The translations under genes and the position numbers were made by a program. From assembly GCA_045803465.1 (NCBI GenBank), contig JBJMOZ010000213.1, positions 1 to 26,396 of the forward strand: a DNA stretch of 26,396 nt, read 5' to 3'. This DNA comes from Gemmatimonadales bacterium. Its GTDB lineage: Bacteria > Gemmatimonadota > Gemmatimonadetes > Gemmatimonadales > GWC2-71-9. Positions 5,252-20,432 of the stretch are shown here, piece after piece (position 1 is the first letter of the stretch; each line of letters starts with the position of its first letter). The notes below the pieces were generated by a model. The model was given only the letters and a program-made list of their open reading frames with translations, made no database searches and was not told where the DNA came from.

Positions 5252-5297
5252 CGCAACCCCAATCATGACATGGGGTTCCGGCCCGACGTCGCGCGGT

Positions 5298-5303
5298 TAT
5301 CTT
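5298..5303 (+). promoter_or_regulatory. Candidate sigma70 -10 element (TATCTT) for the E1alpha operon
   Basis: TATCTT lies 8 nt before the ATG at 5312. No Shine-Dalgarno and no convincing -35. Confidence 0.45.
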
Positions 5304-5311
5304 TGTCCCCC

Positions 5312-6409
5312 ATGACCGCCACGTCCGAACCCCGAGCCGCCGCACCTCCGCACGGCCTCACGCGCGACCAACTGCTCGAGCTGTACTACTGGATGCGCCT
5401 CACGCGCACCCTCGAGGAGCGGCTCGTGGCGCTGTACCGCCAGACGAAAGTGGTCGGTGGGCTCTTCCGGTCGCTCGGCCAGGAGGCGTGCGCCGTCGGA
5501 TCCGCCTTCGCGCTGCAGCAGGGCGACATTCTCTCGCCGCTGATCCGCAACCTCGGCTCGATGCTGGTGAAGGGCGCGCTGCCCATCGAGATCCTGCGCC
5601 AGTACATGGCCAAGGGCGACAGCATGACGCGCGGCCGGGAACTGAACATCCACATCGGCGACCTCGAGCGCGGCTTCGTCGGCCAGATCTCGCACCTCGG
5701 CGACATGGTGCCGGTCATGGCGGGCGTGGCGCTCTCGTTCAAGCTGCGGAAGGAGCCGCGCGTCGGCCTCGCCTACGTCGGTGACGGCGCCACATCGACC
5801 GGCGCGTTCCACGAGGGCATCAACCTCGCCGCCGTGCAGCGCGTGCCGCTCGTGGTGATCGTGGAGAACAACGGCTACGCCTACTCCACGCCCACCGAGA
5901 AGCAGACGGCCGCCAAGTGGTTCGTCGACAAGGCGCCGGGCTACGGAGTGGTCGGCGCGCAGGGCGACGGCAATGACGTGCTCGAGGTGTACCGCGTCAC
6001 GAAGGAGGCGGTGGATCGCGCGCGTGCCGGCGGCGGGGTGAGCCTGCTCGAGTTCCTCACGTATCGCCGCAAGGGGCACGCGGAACACGACAACCAGAGC
6101 TACGTCCCGCCGGGCGAGATCGAGAAATGGGCCACGGAGAACGACCCGCTCGACCGCTTCATGAAGGTGCTGACGGAGACCTACGGCTTCGCCGCCGCGG
6201 AGCTCGACGCGGTCGATGAGCGCGTGCGTACCGAGGTCGATGAAGCCACCGAGATCGCCGAGCGCTCGGCGCCGCCGGAGGCGCTTGACGCGCTCAACGG
6301 CGTCTACGGCGATCCGGCCGTGATGCCGGCGCTGTGGTACCGCGAGGGCGTGCGTTCAGCGGTAGAGAAGCACGAGCGCGCCCAGGGTTGGGGAACGTTC
6401 AATGGCTGA
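5312..6409 (+). CDS. 2-oxoacid dehydrogenase E1 alpha subunit (TPP-dependent; pyruvate or branched-chain type), 365 aa
   Basis: TPP-binding motif GDGA...ENNGYAYS and YRRKGHAEHD loop. Followed by E1beta and E2. ATG 5312 is preferred over 5270. Confidence 0.9.
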   Translation: MTATSEPRAAAPPHGLTRDQLLELYYWMRLTRTLEERLVALYRQTKVVGGLFRSLGQEACAVGSAFALQQGDILSPLIRNLGSMLVKGALPIEILRQYMAKGDSMTRGRELNIHIGDLERGFVGQISHLGDMVPVMAGVALSFKLRKEPRVGLAYVGDGATSTGAFHEGINLAAVQRVPLVVIVENNGYAYSTPTEKQTAAKWFVDKAPGYGVVGAQGDGNDVLEVYRVTKEAVDRARAGGGVSLLEFLTYRRKGHAEHDNQSYVPPGEIEKWATENDPLDRFMKVLTETYGFAAAELDAVDERVRTEVDEATEIAERSAPPEALDALNGVYGDPAVMPALWYREGVRSAVEKHERAQGWGTFNG

Positions 6410-7379
6410 GGTCACTTTTCTTGAGGCGATCCGCGAGGGCCTCAGCGAGGAGATGGAGCGCGACCCGTCCGTCTTCCTGATGGGCGAGGACATCGGCGCG
6501 TACGGCGGCGCCTTCAAGGTCACCGAGGGCCTGCAACAGAAGTTCGGCGCGGAGCGCGTCATCGACACGCCGATCAGCGAGGCTGGCTTCGTGGGCGCGG
6601 CGGCGGGCGCGGCGCACATGGGACTGCGCCCGGTGTGCGAGCTGCAGTTCATCGACTTCATCTCGTGCGCCTACGACATGCTCACCAACTACGTGGCCAC
6701 GGCGAGGTACCGCGCCTTCCTGCCATGCCCGATGGTGGTGCGTGGCCCGTCGGGCGGGTACGTACGCGGCGGCCCGTTCCACTCGCAGAATCCCGAGGCC
6801 GCATTCCTGCACACGCCCGGGCTGAAGATCGTGTATCCGTCCACGCCATCGGATGCGAAGGGCCTCATCAAGTCGGCCATCCGCGACGACGACTGCGTGC
6901 TCTTCTTCGAGCACAAGTACCTCTACCGCCGCATCAAGGAAGTGATGCCGGCGGGCGATCACGTCGTCCCGATCGGCAAGGCGCGCGTGGCGCGGGAAGG
7001 GAAGGACCTCACCATCGTGACGTACGCCGCGACGGTCTGGAAGGCGCTCGAGGCGGCCGAGCAGCTGCAGCAGGAGGACGGGCTATCGGTCGAGGTGATC
7101 GATCTGCGCTCGCTGCTGCCGATGGACGACGAGGCCATCGTGCGGTCGGTGAAGAAGACCAACCGGCTCCTCGTGGTGCATGAGGACACGGTGACCGGCG
7201 GCGTGGCCGGCGAGATCACCGCGCGGGTGAACGAGCTCTGCTTCGAATGGCTGGATGCGCCGGTGCGGCGCGTGGCGGCGCACGATGTGCCGCTGCCCTA
7301 CGCGCCGGCGCTGGAGGATTTCGTGCTGCCGCAGACCAGCGACATCGTCCGCGCGGCCCGGTGGGTAGCGGCGTACTGA
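6402..7379 (+). CDS. 2-oxoacid dehydrogenase E1 beta subunit
   Basis: GEDIGAYGGAFKVTEGL, RVIDTPISE, ELQFIDF and EHKYLY motifs. 8-nt overlap with the E1alpha stop. Confidence 0.93.
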   Translation: MAEVTFLEAIREGLSEEMERDPSVFLMGEDIGAYGGAFKVTEGLQQKFGAERVIDTPISEAGFVGAAAGAAHMGLRPVCELQFIDFISCAYDMLTNYVATARYRAFLPCPMVVRGPSGGYVRGGPFHSQNPEAAFLHTPGLKIVYPSTPSDAKGLIKSAIRDDDCVLFFEHKYLYRRIKEVMPAGDHVVPIGKARVAREGKDLTIVTYAATVWKALEAAEQLQQEDGLSVEVIDLRSLLPMDDEAIVRSVKKTNRLLVVHEDTVTGGVAGEITARVNELCFEWLDAPVRRVAAHDVPLPYAPALEDFVLPQTSDIVRAARWVAAY

Positions 7380-7412
7380 CGCGCCAACATCAACGACAGG
7401 ACAGCAGACATC

Positions 7413-8804
7413 ATGGCCCGAGTCGACGTGATCATGCCCCAGATGGGCGAGTCGATCGCTGAAGGCACCATCTCCCGCTGGATGAAGAAGGCGGGCGACG
7501 CGGTCAAGCGCGACGAGCCGATCTTCGAGATCTCCACCGACAAGGTGGACGCGGAGATCCCGGCGCCCACGGCGGGCGTGCTTGCGGAGATCCTGGTGCA
7601 GGAAGGCACCACGGTTGCCATCAACACCATCGTCGCGCGCATCGAGACCGATGCATCGGCCGCCGCCGCCGCGCCGGCTCCGAGCGCGCCGGCGCCCGCC
7701 GCCAGTGCACCGGCCGCTCCTGCGCCTGCACCTGCCGCTCCACCGTCGCCCGCTCCGCCGAAGCCCGCAGCCGCGGCACCGGCACCGGCACCTGCACCGG
7801 CCGCCCCGCCCGCGAGCGGCGACGGCAGCGAGTCGATGGAGGAGCGCCTGCGCCGCCGCTCGACGCCGTTGGTGCGGAAGATGGTCGCCGAGCACGGCAT
7901 CGACCTCGGCGCGATCCCCGGCAGCGGGATGGCCGGGCGCGTCACCAAGAACGACGTGCTGAGCTATCTCGAGTCCGGCGCGCCCGCCGAAGCACCGGCC
8001 GCGGTTGCACCTGCTCCAGGCGCTGCCGCGGCGCCGGCGCGTCCGGCGGCGCCCGCAACCGTTCCGTCCGCCGCGCCGGGCTATCCGGCCGCCGATCCGT
8101 GGGAGGGCGACCGCGTCGAGCCGTGGTCGCGCATCCGCAAGCTCACCGCGGATCACATGATCATGTCGCGCCGCACCTCGGCGCACGTGGCCACGTTCTT
8201 CGACATCGACTACACGCGCGTCGCCCAGCTGCGCGCGAAGAAGAAGGCGGAATACGCCGAACGCGGCGTCAACCTGACGTTCCTCGCATTCATCGTGAAG
8301 GCGATCGCCGACGGCCTCCGCAAGCATCCCAACGTGAACGTGTCGGTGGGTCACGACACGACGATCTACCGCCGGGACATCAATCTGGGCATCGCGGTGG
8401 CGCTCGACTGGGGGCTCATCGTCCCCGTCATCAAGCATGCCGACGAGCTCTCGCTGCTCGGCGTGTCGCGCGCCATCACCGATCTCGCCGAGCGGGCGCG
8501 GTCGAAGAAGCTGAGTCCCGACGAAGTGCAGAAGGGGACGTTCACCATCACCAACCCCGGCACCTTCGGCTCGACGATCGGTATCCCGATCATCAACCAG
8601 CCGCAGACGGCAATCCTGGCGGTCGGCGCGATCACCAAGCAGCCCGCCGTGGTCACCGTGGACGGGGTGGATGCCATCGGCATTCGCACGATGGGCATGC
8701 TGTCGCTTTCCTTCGACCATCGCGTCATCGATGGCGCCGACGCCGATCGCTTCATGGCCGACGTCAAGAAGTCGCTCGAGTCGTTCGCGGAGGGGTCGGT
8801 CTGA
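7413..8804 (+). CDS. Dihydrolipoamide acyltransferase E2 (single lipoyl domain)
   Basis: Lipoyl motif EISTDKVDAE, E3-binding domain (STPLVRK...GSGMAGRVTKND), catalytic SFDHRVIDG, and Ala/Pro linkers. Confidence 0.93.
   Translation: MARVDVIMPQMGESIAEGTISRWMKKAGDAVKRDEPIFEISTDKVDAEIPAPTAGVLAEILVQEGTTVAINTIVARIETDASAAAAAPAPSAPAPAASAPAAPAPAPAAPPSPAPPKPAAAAPAPAPAPAAPPASGDGSESMEERLRRRSTPLVRKMVAEHGIDLGAIPGSGMAGRVTKNDVLSYLESGAPAEAPAAVAPAPGAAAAPARPAAPATVPSAAPGYPAADPWEGDRVEPWSRIRKLTADHMIMSRRTSAHVATFFDIDYTRVAQLRAKKKAEYAERGVNLTFLAFIVKAIADGLRKHPNVNVSVGHDTTIYRRDINLGIAVALDWGLIVPVIKHADELSLLGVSRAITDLAERARSKKLSPDEVQKGTFTITNPGTFGSTIGIPIINQPQTAILAVGAITKQPAVVTVDGVDAIGIRTMGMLSLSFDHRVIDGADADRFMADVKKSLESFAEGSV
7655..7815 (+). 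repeat. Low-complexity Ala/Pro linker-coding repeats within E2 (approximate bounds)
   Basis: Imperfect gcaccg/gcgccg/gctccg repeats encoding AAAAAPAPSAPAPAASAPAAPAPAPAAPP, the standard flexible E2 linker. Confidence 0.75.
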
Positions 8805-9082
8805 CGCGACGTGCGTTGCAGGTGGCCCGGGCGCGCGTGCCGCGGGCCCGGCAGGAGGAGTACCTGACGGTGATCGCCGAACTGGCCGACGCCGCGCGTG
8901 CCGGCGGCGGGCACCTGTGGGTGTTCCGCCACCGGGAAGATGCCGAGTTGTTCATCGAGTTCCGTGAGGGAGCCGGCGAGCCGCCACGCGATCCGGCTCC
9001 CGCTGCTTCCCGCCTCGCCGCCCTCGCCACGTACGAGCCGGGCGGCGCGGAAATCTGGGAGGAATTGCCGACGGATGCCTAG
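8801..9082 (+). CDS. Small hypothetical protein (about 93 aa), possibly a dimeric alpha-beta barrel fold
   Basis: Fills the E2-to-next-gene gap in frame. GGAGG at 8789-8793 is 7 nt before a CTG at 8801 that overlaps the E2 stop (CTGA). Alternative starts are TTG 8816 and GTG 8822. Sequence includes HLWVFRHREDAELFIEFRE. Confidence 0.7.
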   Translation: MTRRALQVARARVPRARQEEYLTVIAELADAARAGGGHLWVFRHREDAELFIEFREGAGEPPRDPAPAASRLAALATYEPGGAEIWEELPTDA

Positions 9083-9341
9083 ACGACTGATCGACCGAGG
9101 TGCGGAGCAGTGGGAGGTCGCCGTGAGCGGCCGTCGCACCCAGTACACGAAGGATGAGTTCGGCCTCATCTTCACGCGCGTTGCCGGCGGGCCGGTCGAG
9201 CAGCGTGTCGCACGCTACACGCCGCTCGGGCCCAAGAGCCGAGAACTCTCGCTGGCGCGGCTCGTCGACGCCGATCTGCGTGAGCTCCTCGGGCGGTCGC
9301 AACCCTCGTGGACAGCGCCGGAGACGGGATACCGCCGGTGA
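9075..9341 (+). CDS. Small hypothetical protein, 88 aa
   Basis: ATG 9075 overlaps the previous stop, and the stop overlaps the next GTG (GTGA). Sequence MPRRLIDRGAEQWEVAVSGRRTQYTKDEFGLIF is protein-like and unlike the Arg/Ala/Pro-rich shadow ORFs. Confidence 0.75.
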   Translation: MPRRLIDRGAEQWEVAVSGRRTQYTKDEFGLIFTRVAGGPVEQRVARYTPLGPKSRELSLARLVDADLRELLGRSQPSWTAPETGYRR

Positions 9342-10207
9342 GCGACGCCGCAAGCGCCGGCGCCACCGAGCGCTGGGTTGATCTGCATGTGCACACCACC
9401 GCCTCCGACGGCGAACGCCCTCCGGCCGACGTCGTGGCGCGCGCCGCGGCGGCAGGGCTCGCCGCCATCGCCATCACCGACCACGACACGGTGGCCGGCG
9501 TGGCCGAGGCCGAGGCGGCCGGCGCATCGCGGGGCGTGCGCGTGGTGGCCGGATGCGAGTTCTCCGTCGATGCCGGCTGGGGCGAGATGCACCTCCTCGG
9601 CTACTTCCTGCCGGTCACGTCGCCGGAGCTCGCGACGTTCCTGTCGAGTGCCCGGGCGGACCGCGAGCGGCGGGCGCGCGAGATGGTCGAGAAGCTCGTG
9701 ACGGCAGGCGTGAACATCGACGACCAGATGGTGCTCGCCGCCGCGGCCGGCGGAGCCGTGGGCCGGCCGCACGTCGCGCGAGCGCTGCTCGAGATGGGGG
9801 CGGTGCGTTCGCTGGACGAAGCATTCGACCGCTATCTGGGCCGCGGTCGCGCCGCCTACGTGGACAAGCGGCTGCCGGCATTCCGCGACGTGGCGGCGCT
9901 CGTGCACCGCCTGGGTGGCGTGGTGTCGGCGGCGCACCTGAAGGATCGCGGCTCGAGGGGCAATCTCGAGCGCCTGCGCGCCGCGGGGCTCGATGCCGTC
10001 GAGACGCGGCACCCGAGCCACGATCCGGACACGCGCGCCCGGCTCACCGACCTGGTGCTCAAGCTGGGACTCGGCCGCTCGGGTGGCTCCGACTGGCACG
10101 GCGAGCCCGAGGGCGGCTGGAGCCACGGCGCCCTCGGCTCGCAGCAGGTACCGTACGAATGGCTCGAGGCGCTGGAGGCGCGCCGTCCGCAGGCGGCCGC
10201 ATGCTGA
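9338..10207 (+). CDS. PHP-domain metal-dependent phosphoesterase (TrpH/YciV-like), 289 aa
   Basis: DLHVHTTASDG, AITDHDT, GCEFS, MHLLGY, GRPHVA and GGSDWHG motifs. GTG start at 9338. Confidence 0.92.
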   Translation: MSDAASAGATERWVDLHVHTTASDGERPPADVVARAAAAGLAAIAITDHDTVAGVAEAEAAGASRGVRVVAGCEFSVDAGWGEMHLLGYFLPVTSPELATFLSSARADRERRAREMVEKLVTAGVNIDDQMVLAAAAGGAVGRPHVARALLEMGAVRSLDEAFDRYLGRGRAAYVDKRLPAFRDVAALVHRLGGVVSAAHLKDRGSRGNLERLRAAGLDAVETRHPSHDPDTRARLTDLVLKLGLGRSGGSDWHGEPEGGWSHGALGSQQVPYEWLEALEARRPQAAAC

Positions 10208-10647
10208 AGCTGCTGCGTCCCGGCGACGCGGCGCCCGACGCCGAGCTGGCCTCATCTGCAGGTGGCGTGGTGCGGCTCTCCGATTGCTGGCGCACCTCGC
10301 ATGTGCTCTTGCTGTTCTATCCGGGGAACGACACCCCCGGCTGAAACCGCCAACTCTCCGCCGTGCGCGATGAGCTGACGAAGTTCGAGGCCCGGCAGGT
10401 GCGGCCCTTCGGAGTGAACCCCGCGCCGGCCGAGCGACATTCGGAGTACGCGCAGCGTCTCGAGCTGCCATTTCCGCTCCTCAGCGATCCCGATCTCGCG
10501 GTGAGCGCTGCGTACGGGGCGGTGCATCCGGGCGGGGCGTCGATCAGCCGCACGGTGGTGCTGGTGGAGCAGGGGGGCATCGTTCGATTCGCGCAGCCCG
10601 GGGCGCCGGGCGCGGATCTCGTGCTGGAAGCGCTGGGGGAGCCATGA
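10201..10647 (+). CDS. Peroxiredoxin (AhpC/TSA, BCP-like) with in-frame TGA at the peroxidatic position; probable selenoprotein (Sec48), 148 aa
   Basis: One frame from ATG 10201: LRPGDAAPD...VLLLFYPGNDTPG-TGA(10342-10344)-NRQLSAVRD...FGVN...LPFPLLSDPD..VSAAYG..SRTVVLVEQGGIVRF. The TGA occupies the Cys of the PxxxTxxC motif. Confidence is high for the family and lower for Sec versus a nonsense mutation or sequencing error. Confidence 0.8.
10348..10380 (+). promoter_or_regulatory. Putative bacterial SECIS element
   Basis: Hand-folded imperfect hairpin from +4 to +36 after the UGA. The apical loop contains GU at +19/+20. Confidence 0.55.
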
Positions 10648-11375
10648 ACGACAACGCCGAGTTCGATTTCCGCGACCGGGTCGTCCTCGTCACCGGCGTG
10701 GGCCGCGTGGGACAGATCGGCAATGCGACTGCGCGCGCGTTCGGACGCCTGGGCGCGAAGCTCGTGATCTGCGACCTGAACGCGGTCGCCGTGACCGAGC
10801 GCGCGAAGGAGTTCGCCGGCGAGGGGATCGTCGTGCAGCCCGCGGCCGGCGATCTGACCGAGCCCGACGTGGCACGATTCGCGGTGGAGGTGGCGCTCAA
10901 GCACTTCGGACGGCTCGACGTGCTCGTCAACATCGCCGGCGGTCTCACCACGCTCGGTCCCATCGAGCAGGCCACGGTGAAGGACTTCGATCGCGAGATC
11001 GGCATCAACCTGAAGACGACGTTCGTGGTCTCCCAGGCGGCCATCCCGGCGCTCACGGAAACGAAGGGCTCCATCGTCAACGTCGCGTCCATCGCCTACA
11101 TCCAGCCGCAGGCCAACTTGGCGGTGTACACGGCGGCCAAGGCGGCCATCGCGGGCTTCACCCGGAGCCTCGCGCTCGAGCTCTTCGACCGCGGCGTGCG
11201 CGTCAACGCCATCGCGCCGGGCATGGTGCGCACCACCGACAACGTGGCGGCGGTCGGCGCCGAGGCGCATTACGTCGAGATGGAGCACATCACCGCCGGC
11301 GTGGTCTTTCTGGCCAGCCACGCCGCCGAGGCCATCACGGGCCACATCCTGCCCATCACGCGCGGCCGGCTGTAG
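10644..11375 (+). CDS. Short-chain dehydrogenase/reductase (SDR)
   Basis: VLVTGVGRVGQIG, LDVLVNIAG, IVNVAS, catalytic YTAAK and [12 protein letters not shown] overlap with the Prx stop. Confidence 0.9.
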   Translation: MNDNAEFDFRDRVVLVTGVGRVGQIGNATARAFGRLGAKLVICDLNAVAVTERAKEFAGEGIVVQPAAGDLTEPDVARFAVEVALKHFGRLDVLVNIAGGLTTLGPIEQATVKDFDREIGINLKTTFVVSQAAIPALTETKGSIVNVASIAYIQPQANLAVYTAAKAAIAGFTRSLALELFDRGVRVNAIAPGMVRTTDNVAAVGAEAHYVEMEHITAGVVFLASHAAEAITGHILPITRGRL

Positions 11376-11377
11376 CC

Positions 11378-12109
11378 GTGGAACTGGCCGGCCGGGTGGC
11401 CCTCGTCACCGGCGCCGGGCGCCGGTTGGGCCATGCCATGGCCTCGGCGCTGGCCGGCCGAGGGATGACGGTGGCCATTCACTACCGCGAGTCGCAGGCG
11501 GGCGCCGACGCGCTGCGTCGCGACATCGAGGCGGCTGGCGGTCGCGCGGCCTGCTTCGCCGCCGACCTCGCCGACCCGCAGGCCGCCCGCGCCCTGCCGG
11601 CTCGCGTCGTCGACGAGCTCGGCCGGCTCGACGTGCTCGTCAATTCGGCAGCCGTCATGCACCATCTGCGATTCGAGGACACGACCGTCGCGCAGTACGA
11701 CGAGATCCTCGACCTCAACCTGCGCTCCGTTTTCTTCTGCACGCAGGGTGCAGCCGAGGCGCTGCGCCGCGTGCACGGCAAGGTCATCAACATCGCCGAT
11801 CTTGGCGGCCTCGAGCCGTGGCCGGGCTACGCGGCCCACTCGGTGAGCAAGGCCGGCGTGGTCATGCTCACGAAGGTCCTGGCCCTGAGCCTGGCGCCGG
11901 ACGTGACCGTCAACGCCATCGCCCCTGGGGCCGTGCTGGTCCCGGAGGCCTACGACGAGGCCGAGCGCGCGCGGCTGGCCCGCACCACGCCCGCGCAACG
12001 CCTCGGCAGTCCGGACGACGTGGTGGCCGCCTTGCTCTACCTGCTGGAGGGCGGCGATTTCGTGACCGGCGAGGTGCTCGCTGTGGACGGCGGCCGGCGC
12101 CTGCGCTGA
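11378..12109 (+). CDS. SDR, pteridine reductase/FolM-like
   Basis: [23 protein letters not shown] (Asp141), HSVSK, VNAIAPG and VDGGRRL. The Asp at the catalytic Ser position is typical of PTR1/FolM. Confidence 0.85.
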
Positions 12110-12112
12110 ACC

Positions 12113-12130
12113 GTCCCGGGCCTCCGGGAC
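12113..12130 (+). terminator. GC-rich hairpin after the SDR stop (possible terminator or pause)
   Basis: GTCCCGG-gcct-CCGGGAC perfect 7-bp stem. No clean U-tract follows. Confidence 0.35.
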
Positions 12131-12134
12131 CACC

Positions 12135-12140
12135 TATATT
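12135..12140 (+). promoter_or_regulatory. Candidate -10 element (TATATT) for trxB
   Basis: Near-consensus AT-rich hexamer in the 88-nt intergenic gap. No clear -35. Confidence 0.5.
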
Positions 12141-12197
12141 TGTATGACAGCGATCGGCGGCCGGAGTGGCCGCCCGGATACCAGTCAGAGGCAGCGC

Positions 12198-13232
12198 ATG
12201 GCAGACGAGATGGTGCAGCGGGAGACGGTGGTGGTGATTGGGAGCGGGCCGGCGGCGTGGACGGCCGCCGTGTACCTCGCACGGGCGAACCTGCACCCGC
12301 TCGTGCTCGAGGGCGCCCCGTCCCGGGAGATGATTCCGGGCGGCCAGCTCATGTACACCAGCGACATCGAGAATTTTCCGGGCTTCCCCGAGCCGGTCGG
12401 CGGCCAGGAGCTCATGGGCCGCATGCGCGAGCAGGCCGAACGCTTCGGCACGCGCATCGCGACCGATGACGTCACCCGGGTGGACTTCACCTCGTACCCG
12501 TTCCGGCTGTGGACCGGCTACAGCGGACTCGTGGAGGCGAAGGCCGTCATCATCGCCACGGGCGCGCGGGCCAACTGGATCGGCTTGCCCAACGAGGAGC
12601 GCCTCGCCCGCAACGGCGGCGGCGTCTCGGCGTGCGCGGTCTGCGACGGCGCCTTGCCGTTCTTCCGCAACCAGCGCCTCGTGGTGGTCGGGGGCGGCGA
12701 CAGCGCCATGGAAGAGGCCAGCTACCTCACCAAGTTCGCCAGCGAGGTGGTCATCGTGCATCGCCGCGACAGCTTCCGCGCGTCGAAGGTGATGGCCGAC
12801 CGTGTGCTCGCGAACCCCAAGATCCGGGTGGAGTGGAACACGCACATCGTCGACGTGCTGGGTGACGACTTCATCACGGGTGTGCGTCTCGAGGACGCCG
12901 TCACCGGGGCGCAGCGCACGCTCGAATGCGCCGGTCTGTTCGTCGCCATCGGGCATACCCCGAACACCGGCTTCCTGGCCGGGCAGCTCGCGTTGCAGGA
13001 CAGCGGCTATCTCGCCACGCCGGAACCGTGGCGCACGGTGACGAGCGTGCCCGGCGTCTTCGCTGCCGGCGACGTGATGGACGCGTACTACCGACAGGCC
13101 GTGACGGCGGCCGGCACCGGCTGCATGGCGGCGCTCGAGGCGGAGCGGTGGCTGGCGCACCATGGCGTGGAGGCGGCGCAGTCGCCCGTGGTGGAAACGG
13201 CCGAGGCGCCGACCGGAGTCGCAGGTGCCTGA
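12198..13232 (+). CDS. trxB: Thioredoxin-disulfide reductase, 344 aa
   Basis: GSGPAA, GGQL..T..IENFPGF, redox [20 protein letters not shown] and FAAGDV...[11 protein letters not shown] 12198 is preceded by GAGG. Confidence 0.95.
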
Positions 13233-13869
13233 GCTGGTCGTCACGCAACTCGTGAACGGGCGTTTCGCCGAGAATTGCTGGCTCCTCGGCGATGCGGAGA
13301 CGCATGACGCCGTGCTCATCGATCCCGGCGAGGAGCCAGCGCGGTTCCTCGCCGCGGTGCATTCAGGCGGCTGGCGTGTGAACGCCGTCTGGCTGACGCA
13401 TGCGCACATCGACCACGTGCTGGGCGTGCCCGAGGTGAGGAGCGCAACGGGCGCGCCCGTGCTGCTGCACCCGTCCGACCGGCCGCTGTACGACGGCGTG
13501 TCCGCCCAGGCGCAGTGGATGGGATTCGAGGCGGCGAGTCTGCCCGCACCCGACGGCGAGCTGGTGCCTGGCGACACACTGAGCGTGGGAGGCCTGCGCT
13601 TCACCGTGCGACACACGCCGGGCCACTCGCCCGGCAGCGTGAGCTTCGTGGGGCACGGGCGCATCTTCGGCGGCGACGTGCTGTTCCGCGAGTCGATCGG
13701 CCGCACCGACCTGCCGGGCGGCGACTTCTTCACGCTCATGCGCAGCATCCACGCCGAGTTCCTGGTGCTGCCCGACGCCACGATCGTCCACAGCGGCCAC
13801 GGGCCCGACACCACCATCGGCGCCGAGCGCGTCGACAACCCGTATCTGGCGGGAGCCATCCGCGCATGA
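13225..13869 (+). CDS. MBL-fold metallo-hydrolase (glyoxalase II/YcbL-like), 214 aa
   Basis: [25 protein letters not shown]...IGRTD and SGHG motifs. GTG start overlaps the trxB end. Confidence 0.92.
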
Positions 13870-20348: not shown

Positions 20349-20432
20349 TGCCGAAGGGGGGACTCGAACCCCCACGGGCTATCGCCCACTGCGCCCTGAA
20401 CGCAGCGCGTCTACCAATTCCACCACTTCGGC
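20349..20432 (-). tRNA. tRNA-Leu (anticodon CAG)
   Basis: Reverse complement GCCGAAG TGGTGGAATTGGTAGAC GCG CTGCG-TTCAGGG-CGCAG, a long variable arm, GGGGG-TTCGAGT-CCCCC, then CTTCGGC A. CCA is not encoded (CTA follows). Confidence 0.96.

What the first reader, a model, noticed from the sequence alone, without database searches (positions are those of the whole stretch)
10201..10647. Hidden selenoprotein: peroxiredoxin with UGA at the peroxidatic cysteine
Seen: the ORF track splits this gene (one ORF ends at 10344, another starts at 10363 in the same frame). Reading through gives a full 148-aa AhpC/TSA protein with P41-x3-T45-x2-[TGA48] and the downstream conserved Arg (SRTVVLV). Both ends overlap neighbours (ATGCTGA, ATGA), as for an intact operon gene. 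TGA is a true stop in many other genes here. Established: Sec-containing Prx-like proteins are known from bacterial selenoproteome surveys and need SelA/SelB/SelC/SelD, none of which are in this window. Inference: a Sec enzyme that standard pipelines would call a pseudogene or two fragments. Whether it is described for this lineage I cannot tell. If the genome lacks sel genes, conserved UGA read-through would be more novel still.
Basis: partly seen in the sequence, partly recalled or inferred. Interest (0 to 1): 0.85.

Follow-up and report, generated by a model that had tools for sequence, protein, structure and literature searches.

The report
Selenocysteine peroxiredoxin gene, split by annotation
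The apparent stop codon inside this small antioxidant-enzyme gene of a soil Gemmatimonadales bacterium is almost certainly read as selenocysteine at the catalytic site; this enzyme type is already known, but gene callers routinely cut it in two in this bacterial order.

Summary
Observation confirmed and interpretation supported. Window 10201-10647 (+) is one 148-aa AhpC/TSA (BCP/AhpE-like) peroxiredoxin. Its peroxidatic position, residue 48, is TGA (10342-10344).

- **Sec machinery:** the genome, a Gemmatimonadales MAG, has selA, selB, selD and tRNA-Sec.
- **Conservation:** in a 300-genome phylum sample, 79 other genomes carry the ortholog. Counting the window's own copy, 71 have TGA at this codon and 9 have Cys.
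- **Recoding signal:** in 101 distinct TGA forms, a 19-nt hairpin starting 11 nt after UGA (10356-10374) is almost invariant. Four 4- or 6-fold degenerate codons show no synonymous change, while its bulge base varies freely. Two lineages carry compensatory changes, and a distant lineage has a different hairpin at the same place. Cys forms lack this constraint.
- **Not a sequencing error:** an independent metagenome assembly about 98% identical keeps TGA.
- **Annotation:** public protein sets hold the TGA forms only as 90-95-aa C-terminal fragments.
- **Context:** the gene sits in a conserved run E1-E2-small ORF-(PHP)-Prx-SDR-SDR-TrxB.

Sec peroxiredoxins (PxxxTxxU) are an established selenoprotein family, and this scan already holds over 1000 such notes on other DNA. 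The finding is solid but ordinary: a new member of a known kind. Selenium insertion itself is untested.

The parts
10201..10647 (+). Complete coding sequence of the selenocysteine peroxiredoxin (148 aa plus TGA stop). It has a BCP/AhpE-like thioredoxin fold.
   Evidence: Translation. Pfam AhpC-TSA E 3.5e-28, full length. Profile against PDB: best hits are BCP and AhpE chains, E 8e-26. AlphaFold model pLDDT 96; Foldseek gives Bcp1 3DRN and AhpE 1XVW with TM 0.86-0.89.
10342..10344 (+). In-frame UGA read as selenocysteine. This is residue 48, the peroxidatic position of the PxxxTxxC motif.
   Evidence: It aligns with the peroxidatic Cys of BCP (YPKDNTPGC). It is the first residue of helix 48-57 in the model. 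The codon is TGA in 28 of 29 orthologs among relatives, 78 of 80 motif-selected loci, and 71 of 80 in a phylum sample; it is Cys in the rest.
10345..10355 (+). 11-nt spacer between UGA and the hairpin (AACCGCCAACU).
   Evidence: Third codon positions still vary here: AAC/AAT, CGC/CGG/CGT/CGA, CAA/CAG. CAA is preferred 81:20 in Sec forms, against CAG 8:1 in Cys forms.
10356..10374 (+). Proposed SECIS hairpin. Pairs are 10356-10358 with 10372-10374 and 10359-10361 with 10367-10369. A 2-nt 3' bulge lies at 10370-10371, and the loop CGUGC at 10362-10366 has G-U at 10363-10364.
   Evidence: There is zero synonymous variation at TCC GCC GTG CGC in 101 distinct Sec forms, while the bulge base Y is 51:48. 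99% of cells are paired, two pairs show changes on both sides, and the covariation score is 0.173 against 0.046 in shuffles. The alternative MFE register is paired in only 87.7% of cells with no covariation. A distant Sec form has a different hairpin at the same place, and Cys forms are not constrained.
9308..10207 (+). Upstream PHP-domain phosphoesterase gene, overlapping the Prx start by 7 nt. It is present in this position in family f1 and f2 orthologous loci and absent in f3.
   Evidence: Pfam PHP; synteny.
9075..9341 (+). Small conserved ORF of about 88 aa with no family assignment and no Cys. It always lies between E2 and the Prx (or PHP) gene.
   Evidence: No Pfam or NCBIfam hit. tblastn finds it in every locus where upstream DNA was available.
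5270..8804 (+). 2-oxoacid dehydrogenase E1 alpha, E1 beta and lipoyl-E2 genes heading the gene run.
   Evidence: Pfam E1_dh, Transket_pyr/Transketolase_C, and Biotin_lipoyl + E3_binding + 2-oxoacid_dh. E2 lies upstream in orthologous loci.
10644..12109 (+). Two short-chain dehydrogenase/reductase genes directly downstream. The first overlaps the Prx stop (ATGA).
   Evidence: Pfam adh_short. At least one is conserved downstream in 26 of the 28 orthologous loci; in the other two (L020, L022) trxB follows directly.
12144..13232 (+). Thioredoxin-disulfide reductase (TrxB) with a CAVC redox motif. It is the candidate electron source for recycling the Sec-Prx.
   Evidence: TIGR01292 scores 365.2 bits, above the cut-off of 343.45. 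Sequence. It is also adjacent in other loci.

Best explanation
Window 10201-10647 is a single functional gene for a cytoplasmic 1-Sec peroxiredoxin of the BCP/AhpE type.

**Decoding.** When the ribosome reaches UGA 10342-10344, SelB carrying Sec-tRNA(Sec) is recruited by a small hairpin. The hairpin begins 11 nt downstream (10356-10374) and has a pentaloop CGUGC presenting G-U. Selenocysteine is inserted as residue 48.

**Catalysis.** Sec48 sits at the N-terminus of helix 2, in the pocket formed by P41, T45 and R117. Its selenolate reduces H2O2 or organic hydroperoxides to give a selenenic acid.

**Recycling.** No second Cys is conserved in the family, and the BCP resolving position +5 is Ser. 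The oxidised enzyme must therefore be recycled by an external thiol. The most likely donor is a thioredoxin kept reduced by the TrxB encoded three genes downstream.

**Shown:** gene integrity, conservation of UGA, Sec machinery, RNA-level constraint, fold.

**Inferred:** actual Se insertion, SelB binding to this hairpin, substrate and reductant.
For: - **One gene, not two.** The AhpC/TSA domain spans the UGA. Residues upstream of U48 (G8, A11, P12, L26, L37, F39, Y40, P41, P46, G47) are invariant in 27 orthologs of 45-63% identity. The N-terminal part is therefore under protein-level selection.
- **Position.** U48 aligns with the peroxidatic Cys of solved BCPs and starts helix 48-57 in a pLDDT-96 model. 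That model matches Bcp1 and AhpE at TM 0.86-0.89.
- **Machinery in the same MAG.** selA scores 313.8 and 228.3 bits on two contig ends. selB scores 329.9 bits over positions 1-579 of 581. selD scores 381.9 bits. tRNA-Sec is called by ARAGORN and by Rfam RF01852 at 68.3 bits. selA is found in 55 of 61 related genomes.
- **Sec/Cys pairs.** TGA occurs in 71 and Cys in 9 of 80 orthologs in a phylum sample. Cys forms are nested among Sec forms in the tree.
- **SECIS.** See, as listed under parts.
- **Independent assembly keeps TGA**.
- **TGA is the normal stop in this genome**.
- **TrxB passes its equivalog cut-off**, and the gene order is conserved.
Against: - There is no direct evidence of selenium in the protein or of translation past the UGA.
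- The hairpin is small (6 bp). The folding energy of the region is not better than shuffled sequence (z = -0.19).
- The three upper pairs and the loop never vary, so they carry no covariation.
- The 12:30 C-G to G-C switch is a single evolutionary event in one clade. The second compensated pair is seen in one sequence only. My alignment for searches was deliberately enriched for the variant clade.
- RNAfold prefers a different lower-stem register.
- No Rfam family matches.
- No thioredoxin gene lies in the gene run, so the reductant is a guess.
- The protein reaches no NCBIfam equivalog cut-off.
Confidence: 0.93

Rival explanations
1. The gene is a genuine Sec gene, but the 10356-10374 hairpin is not the SelB-binding element. 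On this view the nucleotide invariance reflects another constraint, such as a different or larger RNA structure, a regulatory site or an overlapping signal.
For: The hairpin is only 6 bp, and the folding energy is not significant. RNAfold prefers other registers. The upper stem and loop are invariant, so they are unsupported by covariation. The own genome's selD has a hairpin of unrelated sequence after its UGA.
Against: - The invariant block begins and ends with the hairpin.
- The only freely varying base inside it is the predicted bulge (51:48).
- Three lineage variants (a 16-member clade, L019, L024) each keep a 6-bp hairpin starting at nt +12.
- A distant Sec form replaces it with a different perfect hairpin, with GU in the loop, at the same distance.
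- Cys forms lose the constraint.
Confidence: 0.08
2. UGA is decoded, but not as selenocysteine. It would instead be read by near-cognate read-through (Trp, Cys or Arg) or by a local recoding event unrelated to SelB.
For: No proteomic or labelling evidence exists, and the identity of the inserted residue is inferred.
Against: - The codon is at the redox-active Cys position, and the only alternative residue in orthologs is Cys.
- The full Sec machinery is present.
- A conserved hairpin lies at SECIS distance.
- TGA terminates most genes here, including this one.
Confidence: 0.03
3. The gene is a pseudogene or an assembly or sequencing error. On this view a Cys codon mutated to TGA, and only fragments or nothing are made.
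For: Gene callers treat it this way. Public sets hold only the 94-aa fragment.
Against: - TGA is at the identical codon in more than 100 orthologs down to 42% identity.
- Both halves are under purifying selection.
- Operon overlaps are intact.
- An independent assembly from another study keeps TGA.
Confidence: 0.01

Closest known systems
Sec-containing peroxiredoxin family ('Prx', PF00578 / COG1225 Bcp, PxxxTxxU). The prototype is PrxU of Eubacterium acidaminophilum (Sohling et al. 2001). The family is listed in PMC1794560, PMC5029168, PMC9312934 and PMC13188914.
   Same: It has the AhpC/TSA fold. Sec replaces the peroxidatic Cys in PxxxTxxU. Cys-containing homologs exist at the same site. A SECIS hairpin follows directly 3' of UGA. 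The organism carries SelA, SelB, SelD and tRNA-Sec.
   Different: It is not an ortholog of PrxU: NCBIfam peroxi_PrxU scores 27.9 bits against a cut-off of 270. It is a short 148-aa BCP/AhpE-like form without any conserved second Cys. It is confined largely to Gemmatimonadales and embedded in a 2-oxoacid dehydrogenase / SDR / TrxB gene run. I found no paper in the searched library that describes selenoproteins of this phylum. That is absence of evidence only.
BCP/PrxQ peroxiredoxins (Sulfolobus solfataricus Bcp1, PDB 3DRN; Burkholderia ambifaria, PDB 5ENU; E. coli BCP family NF006960)
   Same: These are the best sequence and fold matches: E 8e-26 and 1e-25, and TM 0.87-0.88. Size, active-site motif and conserved Arg are the same.
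   Different: It has Sec instead of Cys. The resolving Cys five residues after the peroxidatic one is Ser here (U-N-R-Q-L-S). The score is below the NF006960 equivalog cut-off, 68.4 against 140.
AhpE of Mycobacterium tuberculosis (Rv2238c; PDB 1XVW, 1XXU, 4X0X), a 1-Cys peroxiredoxin
   Same: The size is similar, identity is 31-33%, and TM is 0.86-0.89. Both use a single redox-active residue and depend on an external reductant.
   Different: AhpE uses Cys. From my own knowledge, not tested here, its known reductants are mycothiol/mycoredoxin, which are not expected in Gemmatimonadota.
Minimal SECIS of E. coli fdhF (recalled from the literature, not checked here: a roughly 17-nt upper stem-loop placed 11 nt after UGA, with G-U in the loop and a bulged U; the bSECISearch model places the apical loop 16-37 nt from UGA)
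   Same: The hairpin starts exactly 11 nt after UGA. The loop begins 17 nt after UGA. G-U lies in the apical loop, and there is a small bulge in the stem.
   Different: The sequence is different. The bulge is 2 nt and on the 3' strand. The stem is only 6 bp. Binding to SelB is untested.

Membership tests
Sec-containing peroxiredoxin (Prx, PxxxTxxU selenoprotein family) | AhpC/TSA (thioredoxin-fold) peroxiredoxin domain spanning the UGA | tested here: met
   PF00578 E 3.5e-28, residues 7-130 on profile 1-123/124. Model pLDDT 96; BCP and AhpE folds at TM 0.86-0.89.
Sec-containing peroxiredoxin (Prx, PxxxTxxU selenoprotein family) | UGA at the peroxidatic position of PxxxTxxC, with the conserved active-site Arg | tested here: met
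   P41, T45, U48 and R117 are present. P41, U48 and R117 are invariant and T45 nearly invariant (90% or more) in 27 orthologs. U48 aligns with the Cys of YPKDNTPGC in 5ENU.
Sec-containing peroxiredoxin (Prx, PxxxTxxU selenoprotein family) | Orthologs with Cys at the same codon (Sec/Cys pair) | tested here: met
   TGC or TGT occurs in L028, L087, L104, L124, L125 and in 9 of 80 orthologs of the phylum sample.
Sec-containing peroxiredoxin (Prx, PxxxTxxU selenoprotein family) | Bacterial SECIS stem-loop immediately 3' of UGA | tested here: met
   A conserved hairpin lies at nt +12 to +30. It shows synonymous-site invariance, compensatory changes and a free bulge base, is absent from Cys forms, and is replaced by a different hairpin in a distant Sec form. 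Thermodynamics alone is not significant.
Sec-containing peroxiredoxin (Prx, PxxxTxxU selenoprotein family) | Host genome encodes SelA, SelB, SelD and tRNA-Sec | tested here: met
   All four were found above the curated cut-offs in the same MAG.
Sec-containing peroxiredoxin (Prx, PxxxTxxU selenoprotein family) | Selenium actually incorporated, and peroxidase activity | not testable with these tools
   This needs 75Se labelling, mass spectrometry or an enzyme assay.
BCP/PrxQ subfamily (NCBIfam NF006960, thioredoxin-dependent thiol peroxidase) | Score above the equivalog cut-off | tested here: not met
   68.4 bits against a cut-off of 140. The protein is BCP-like by fold and best hits, but it is not a member of the curated equivalog.
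BCP/PrxQ subfamily (NCBIfam NF006960, thioredoxin-dependent thiol peroxidase) | Resolving Cys five residues after the peroxidatic residue (typical, not universal, of BCPs) | tested here: not met
   The sequence U48-N-R-Q-L-S53 has Ser there. No other Cys is conserved in the family.
PrxU (NCBIfam NF040737, the experimentally shown Sec peroxiredoxin of Eubacterium acidaminophilum) | Score above the equivalog cut-off | tested here: not met
   27.9 bits against a cut-off of 270.
SelL-related redox protein (NCBIfam NF040769) | Score above the subfamily cut-off | tested here: not met
   35.6 bits against a cut-off of 120.

The most novel reading that the evidence does not exclude
The Sec-peroxiredoxin may be a dedicated accessory of the co-transcribed 2-oxoacid dehydrogenase. 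On this reading it would be re-reduced by the dihydrolipoyl arm of the E2 encoded upstream, or directly by the operon's TrxB without a thioredoxin. That would resemble the AhpC/AhpD/DlaT/Lpd relay of Mycobacterium tuberculosis and would make it a lipoamide-linked selenoperoxidase. The gene order E1-E2-small ORF-(PHP)-SecPrx-SDR-SDR-TrxB is kept across three families of the order. No E3 or thioredoxin gene lies in the run. No test of binding or electron transfer was made.
Probability: 0.1. Interest if true: 0.55.

Novelty: new member of a known kind. Interest (0 to 1): 0.3.

Why it matters
- **Annotation.** In a common soil order, a conserved antioxidant enzyme is recorded as a 90-95-aa fragment or not at all. 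More than 596 species-level genomes matched the motif scan, and about a quarter of a phylum-wide sample carry the gene. Functional inventories of oxidative-stress defence and of selenium use in soil Gemmatimonadales are therefore biased.
- **A clean natural SECIS example.** The locus gives a minimal bacterial SECIS with Sec and Cys forms side by side. The effect of the RNA signal on synonymous sites can be read directly. This is useful as a training case for selenoprotein finders.
- **Ecology.** It adds to the evidence that Sec peroxiredoxins are used by largely aerobic soil bacteria, not only by anaerobes.
- **Limits.** It does not change the understanding of Sec decoding or of peroxiredoxins.

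Tried and rejected
- **Thermodynamic test of the 69 nt after UGA:** z = -0.19, uninformative in a 70% GC genome.
- **Rfam scan of the window:** only a tRNA at 20349-20432. No SECIS family matched.
It is rejected in favour of 10356-10358 with 10372-10374. It is paired in only 87.7% of cells with zero covariation, against 99.0% and a score of 0.173.
- **Search for the hairpin core 12-mer elsewhere in the genome:** 33 chance hits in GC-rich DNA, none behind a TGA except this one.
- **Comparison with the hairpin after the UGA of the genome's own selD:** the two hairpins are unrelated in sequence, so there is no support from similarity.
- **NCBIfam:** no equivalog or subfamily cut-off was reached.
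- **Co-occurrence of the Sec form with selA among relatives:** uninformative, because selA is nearly universal in the order (55 of 61).
- **Expression:** RNA runs held only 5-8% of the sampled words, probably the conserved 34-nt block.
- **Annotated Sec forms in public sets:** the full-length database proteins I read all show Cys at the site. The two checked against their DNA are true Cys forms, not annotated Sec forms.
- **No complex prediction was run,** because I do not claim binding.
Full report
**1. The observation**

Window 10201-10647 (+) contains an ATG at 10201, an in-frame TGA at 10342-10344 and a terminal TGA at 10645-10647. One ORF, 9553..10344, ends at the internal TGA. Another, 10363..10647, starts at a GTG in the same frame.

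Read with TGA=U, the frame gives 148 residues with ...FYPGNDTPG-U48-NRQLSAVRDE... and R117 in SISRTVVLV. Pfam AhpC-TSA matches residues 7-130 over essentially the whole profile (E 3.5e-28), so one domain spans the TGA.

The start overlaps the stop of the upstream PHP gene (ATGCTGA), and the stop overlaps the ATG of the next gene (ATGA). Nine of the eleven genes I checked in the window end in TGA, so the codon is not reassigned genome-wide.

**2. The organism and its Sec machinery**

The window is contig C114 of a 2.7-Mb, 393-contig, 84%-complete MAG with 70% GC. Titles of related public contigs place it in Gemmatimonadales.

The same MAG carries the full Sec machinery:
- selA, split over two contig ends (313.8 and 228.3 bits).
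- A full-length selB (329.9 bits, profile positions 1-579 of 581).
- selD (381.9 bits), which itself has an in-frame TGA at the SxGxG-U-xCK site.
- A tRNA-Sec with anticodon UCA, found by ARAGORN and by Rfam RF01852 at 68.3 bits.

selA is present in 55 of 61 sampled relatives, so Sec decoding is a general trait of the order.

**3. Orthologs**

A six-frame search of 60 relatives found 28 orthologs (45-89% identity) in three families of the order. All have one TGA, and one further ortholog has none.

Translating them shows the TGA always at the same codon within FYPGN(N/D)TPG-U-NRQLSAVRDE. The exception (G018) has TGC.

A motif scan of one genome per species found at least 596 stretches encoding a relative. 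Of the best 80, 78 have TGA and 2 have TGC. That sample is selected by the motif, so its ratio is biased.

A protein-level search of 300 genomes drawn evenly across the phylum is less biased. It found the ortholog in 79 other genomes (80 including the window's own). TGA occurs in 71 and no stop in 9. The Cys forms are confined to a few genera (g8, g55, g98 and one f2 genome). These tallies include one genome, G188, that is flagged as unpublished. Nothing else in this report rests on it.

In a maximum-likelihood tree, the three Cys forms included are nested among Sec forms at two separate places. These are L087/L104 beside L021/L027, and L028 beside L049.

Residues upstream of U48 (G8, A11, P12, L26, L37, F39, Y40, P41, P46, G47) are invariant in 27 orthologs. 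The part that gene callers discard is therefore under protein-level selection.

**4. Not an error**

Contigs of four public soil or rhizosphere metagenome runs from four different studies were laid on 10101-10747. One contig of 1517 nt covers the whole stretch with 15 differences. It differs at 10341 (GGC to GGT, synonymous) but keeps TGA. No run shows another letter at 10342-10344.

Several contigs of other organisms match only 10341-10374 and then diverge. This is the same ultra-conserved block seen in the ortholog comparison.

**5. The recoding signal**

I took 101 distinct Sec-form sequences and asked, codon by codon, how much synonymous variation exists among sequences sharing the majority amino acid.

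- Conserved 4- or 6-fold degenerate codons away from the UGA have 0.9-1.7 bits. These are P, G, T, P, G at -7, -6, -3, -2, -1 and R, P, G, V at +20, +21, +23, +24.
- Codons +5 to +8 (TCC GCC GTG CGC) have zero.
- Codon +10 is always GAG when it encodes Glu.
- Codon +9 between them is GAT 51 : GAC 48.

The invariant nucleotides form a hairpin that starts 11 nt after UGA:
- C12-G30, U13-A29, C14-G28.
- A 2-nt bulge A26-Y27, containing the freely varying base.
- C15-G25, G16-C24, C17-G23.
- Loop C18-G19-U20-G21-C22.

In window coordinates this is 10356-10374.

Among all column pairs, the highest mutual information is between +12 and +30. Counts over 95 distinct sequences are 82 C-G, 12 G-C, 1 C-U, and no uncompensated G-G or C-C. 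The G-C state couples a synonymous CTC to CTG change with a Glu to Asp change. It marks one 16-member clade, so it is a single event.

Two single sequences show further variants. One ortholog (L019) changes U13-A29 to G..C and folds into a perfect 6-bp stem with the same loop. Another (L024) changes G16 and Y27 together and keeps six contiguous pairs from nt +12.

On a 37-sequence alignment the proposed structure is paired in 99.0% of cells, with two pairs changed on both sides. The covariation score is 0.173 against 0.046 in shuffles (0 of 500 reach it). Slid controls are much lower on cells paired (16-63%), and their best covariation score is 0.105. I deliberately enriched this alignment for the variant clade, and cells count sequences, not events.

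It is paired in only 87.7% of cells and shows no covariation.

Two natural controls strengthen the case:
- **Cys forms.** In nine distinct Cys forms the same codons vary, both in amino acid (S/T/A, A/M/V/I, V/L, R/Q/E) and synonymously (TCG, GCA, CGT). One Cys form with the identical peptide NRQLSAVRDD uses AAT, TCG, CGT and GAT where Sec forms are fixed.
- **A distant Sec form.** In another lineage of the phylum (G065) the peptide is NRQLSSLRDD. The RNA there is CUCUCA-AGUU-UGAGAG, a different perfect 6-bp hairpin with G-U in its loop, at the same place.

Caveats remain. The hairpin is small. The folding energy of the region is no better than shuffled sequence (z = -0.19). The upper stem and loop never vary. 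No Rfam family matches.

From memory, not checked here: the minimal E. coli fdhF SECIS is a short hairpin 11 nt after UGA with G-U in the loop, and the bSECISearch model places the loop 16-37 nt from UGA. The present element fits both.

**6. The protein**

A profile of the family finds BCP/PrxQ and AhpE chains first in the PDB. These are 5ENU at 8e-26, 3DRN at 1e-25, and AhpE at about 3e-21. U48 aligns with the peroxidatic Cys.

An AlphaFold model (pLDDT 96, pTM 0.91) places U48 as the first residue of helix 48-57, as in all peroxiredoxins. Foldseek returns Bcp1 and AhpE at TM 0.86-0.89.

No NCBIfam equivalog cut-off is reached. BCP scores 68.4 against 140, PrxU 27.9 against 270, and SelL-related 35.6 against 120.

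No second Cys is conserved, and the BCP resolving position is Ser. I therefore infer a 1-Sec mechanism with an external reductant.

**7. Context**

The gene lies in a tightly packed run:
- E1 alpha, E1 beta and lipoyl-E2 of a 2-oxoacid dehydrogenase.
- A small ORF of about 88 aa with no family.
- A PHP phosphoesterase.
- The Sec-Prx.
- Two SDRs.
- A bona fide thioredoxin reductase (TIGR01292, 365 bits against a cut-off of 343).
- A metallo-beta-lactamase-fold protein.

E2, the small ORF, (PHP), Prx and downstream SDR genes are in the same order in nearly all of the 28 orthologous loci, as far as the fetched DNA reaches. Two loci (L020, L022) have trxB directly after the Prx and no SDR. PHP is absent in family f3. 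The Cys-form loci have the same neighbours.

TrxB as the ultimate electron source is the simplest reading. A link to the lipoyl-E2 is possible but untested.

**8. What is known**

Peroxiredoxin with TxxU / PxxxTxxU (PF00578, COG1225 Bcp) is listed among the experimentally supported bacterial selenoprotein families, with the prototype from Eubacterium acidaminophilum. It ranked seventh in frequency in a survey of 5200 genomes, with 91 genes in 78 organisms (PMC1794560, PMC5029168, PMC9312934, PMC13188914).

None of these four papers mentions Gemmatimonadota, and no paper in the searched library links the phylum to selenoproteins in title or abstract. That is absence of evidence only.

This scan's own notes already hold over 1000 entries on Sec peroxiredoxins in about 970 genomes. 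One concerns a different, exported Sec-Prx of Gemmatimonadales, part of which later failed a check. I therefore make no claim of lineage novelty beyond saying what I did not find.

**9. Annotation status**

The public protein collection holds the window's gene only as a 94-aa fragment starting at GTG 10363. Many orthologs appear as 82-95-aa fragments named 'peroxiredoxin'. The full-length entries I read all show Cys at the site, and the two checked against their DNA are true Cys forms.

**10. Verdict**

This is a real, intact selenoprotein gene (confidence about 0.93) with a well-supported minimal SECIS. It is a new member of a known kind. Interest is moderate to low (0.3). The value lies in correcting a systematic annotation error in a common soil order, and in a clean natural Sec-versus-Cys contrast for the RNA signal.

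Noticed in passing
G000 contig C197, TGA at 13529 (locus L011): The genome's own selD has an in-frame TGA at the SLSHGAG-U-ACKLG active site, so it is a Sec-containing SelD. A 7-bp hairpin (AGCUCGG-GCUCU-CCGAGUU) starts 7 nt after the UGA. Its sequence is unrelated to the Prx hairpin.
   Followed up: partly
G000 contigs C271:3-743 and C45:1874-2512: selA is split across two contig ends, with profile positions 2-255 on one and 237-453 on the other. This looks like an assembly break rather than a broken gene.
   Followed up: no
window 9075-9341 (+): A small Cys-free ORF of about 88 aa has no Pfam or NCBIfam family. It is conserved between E2 and the PHP or Prx gene in every orthologous locus with upstream DNA. 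Some loci (L124) have two such small genes. Its function is unknown.
   Followed up: partly
window 5270-13232 (+): The 2-oxoacid dehydrogenase genes (E1 alpha, E1 beta, E2) have no E3 (dihydrolipoyl dehydrogenase) gene in the run. The only flavoprotein disulfide reductase there is TrxB. I confirmed the gene content and its conservation only.
   Followed up: partly
window 10341-10374: When metagenome contigs are laid on the stretch, summed depth spikes three- to seven-fold over 10343-10386. Contigs of other organisms match just this 34-nt block and diverge at 10374. It is the most conserved DNA in the gene across species.
   Followed up: yes
loci L099 and L111: Two contigs with Gemmatimonadales-type Sec-Prx genes sit in MAGs labelled Acidimicrobiia and Bacillota. 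L099 is nearly identical in protein to L084, which comes from a Gemmatimonadales MAG. Mis-binning seems more likely than transfer.
   Followed up: no
window 13162-13869 (+) versus 12144-13232 (+): The longest ORF of the metallo-beta-lactamase-fold gene overlaps the end of trxB by 71 nt. Its true start is probably further downstream.
   Followed up: no
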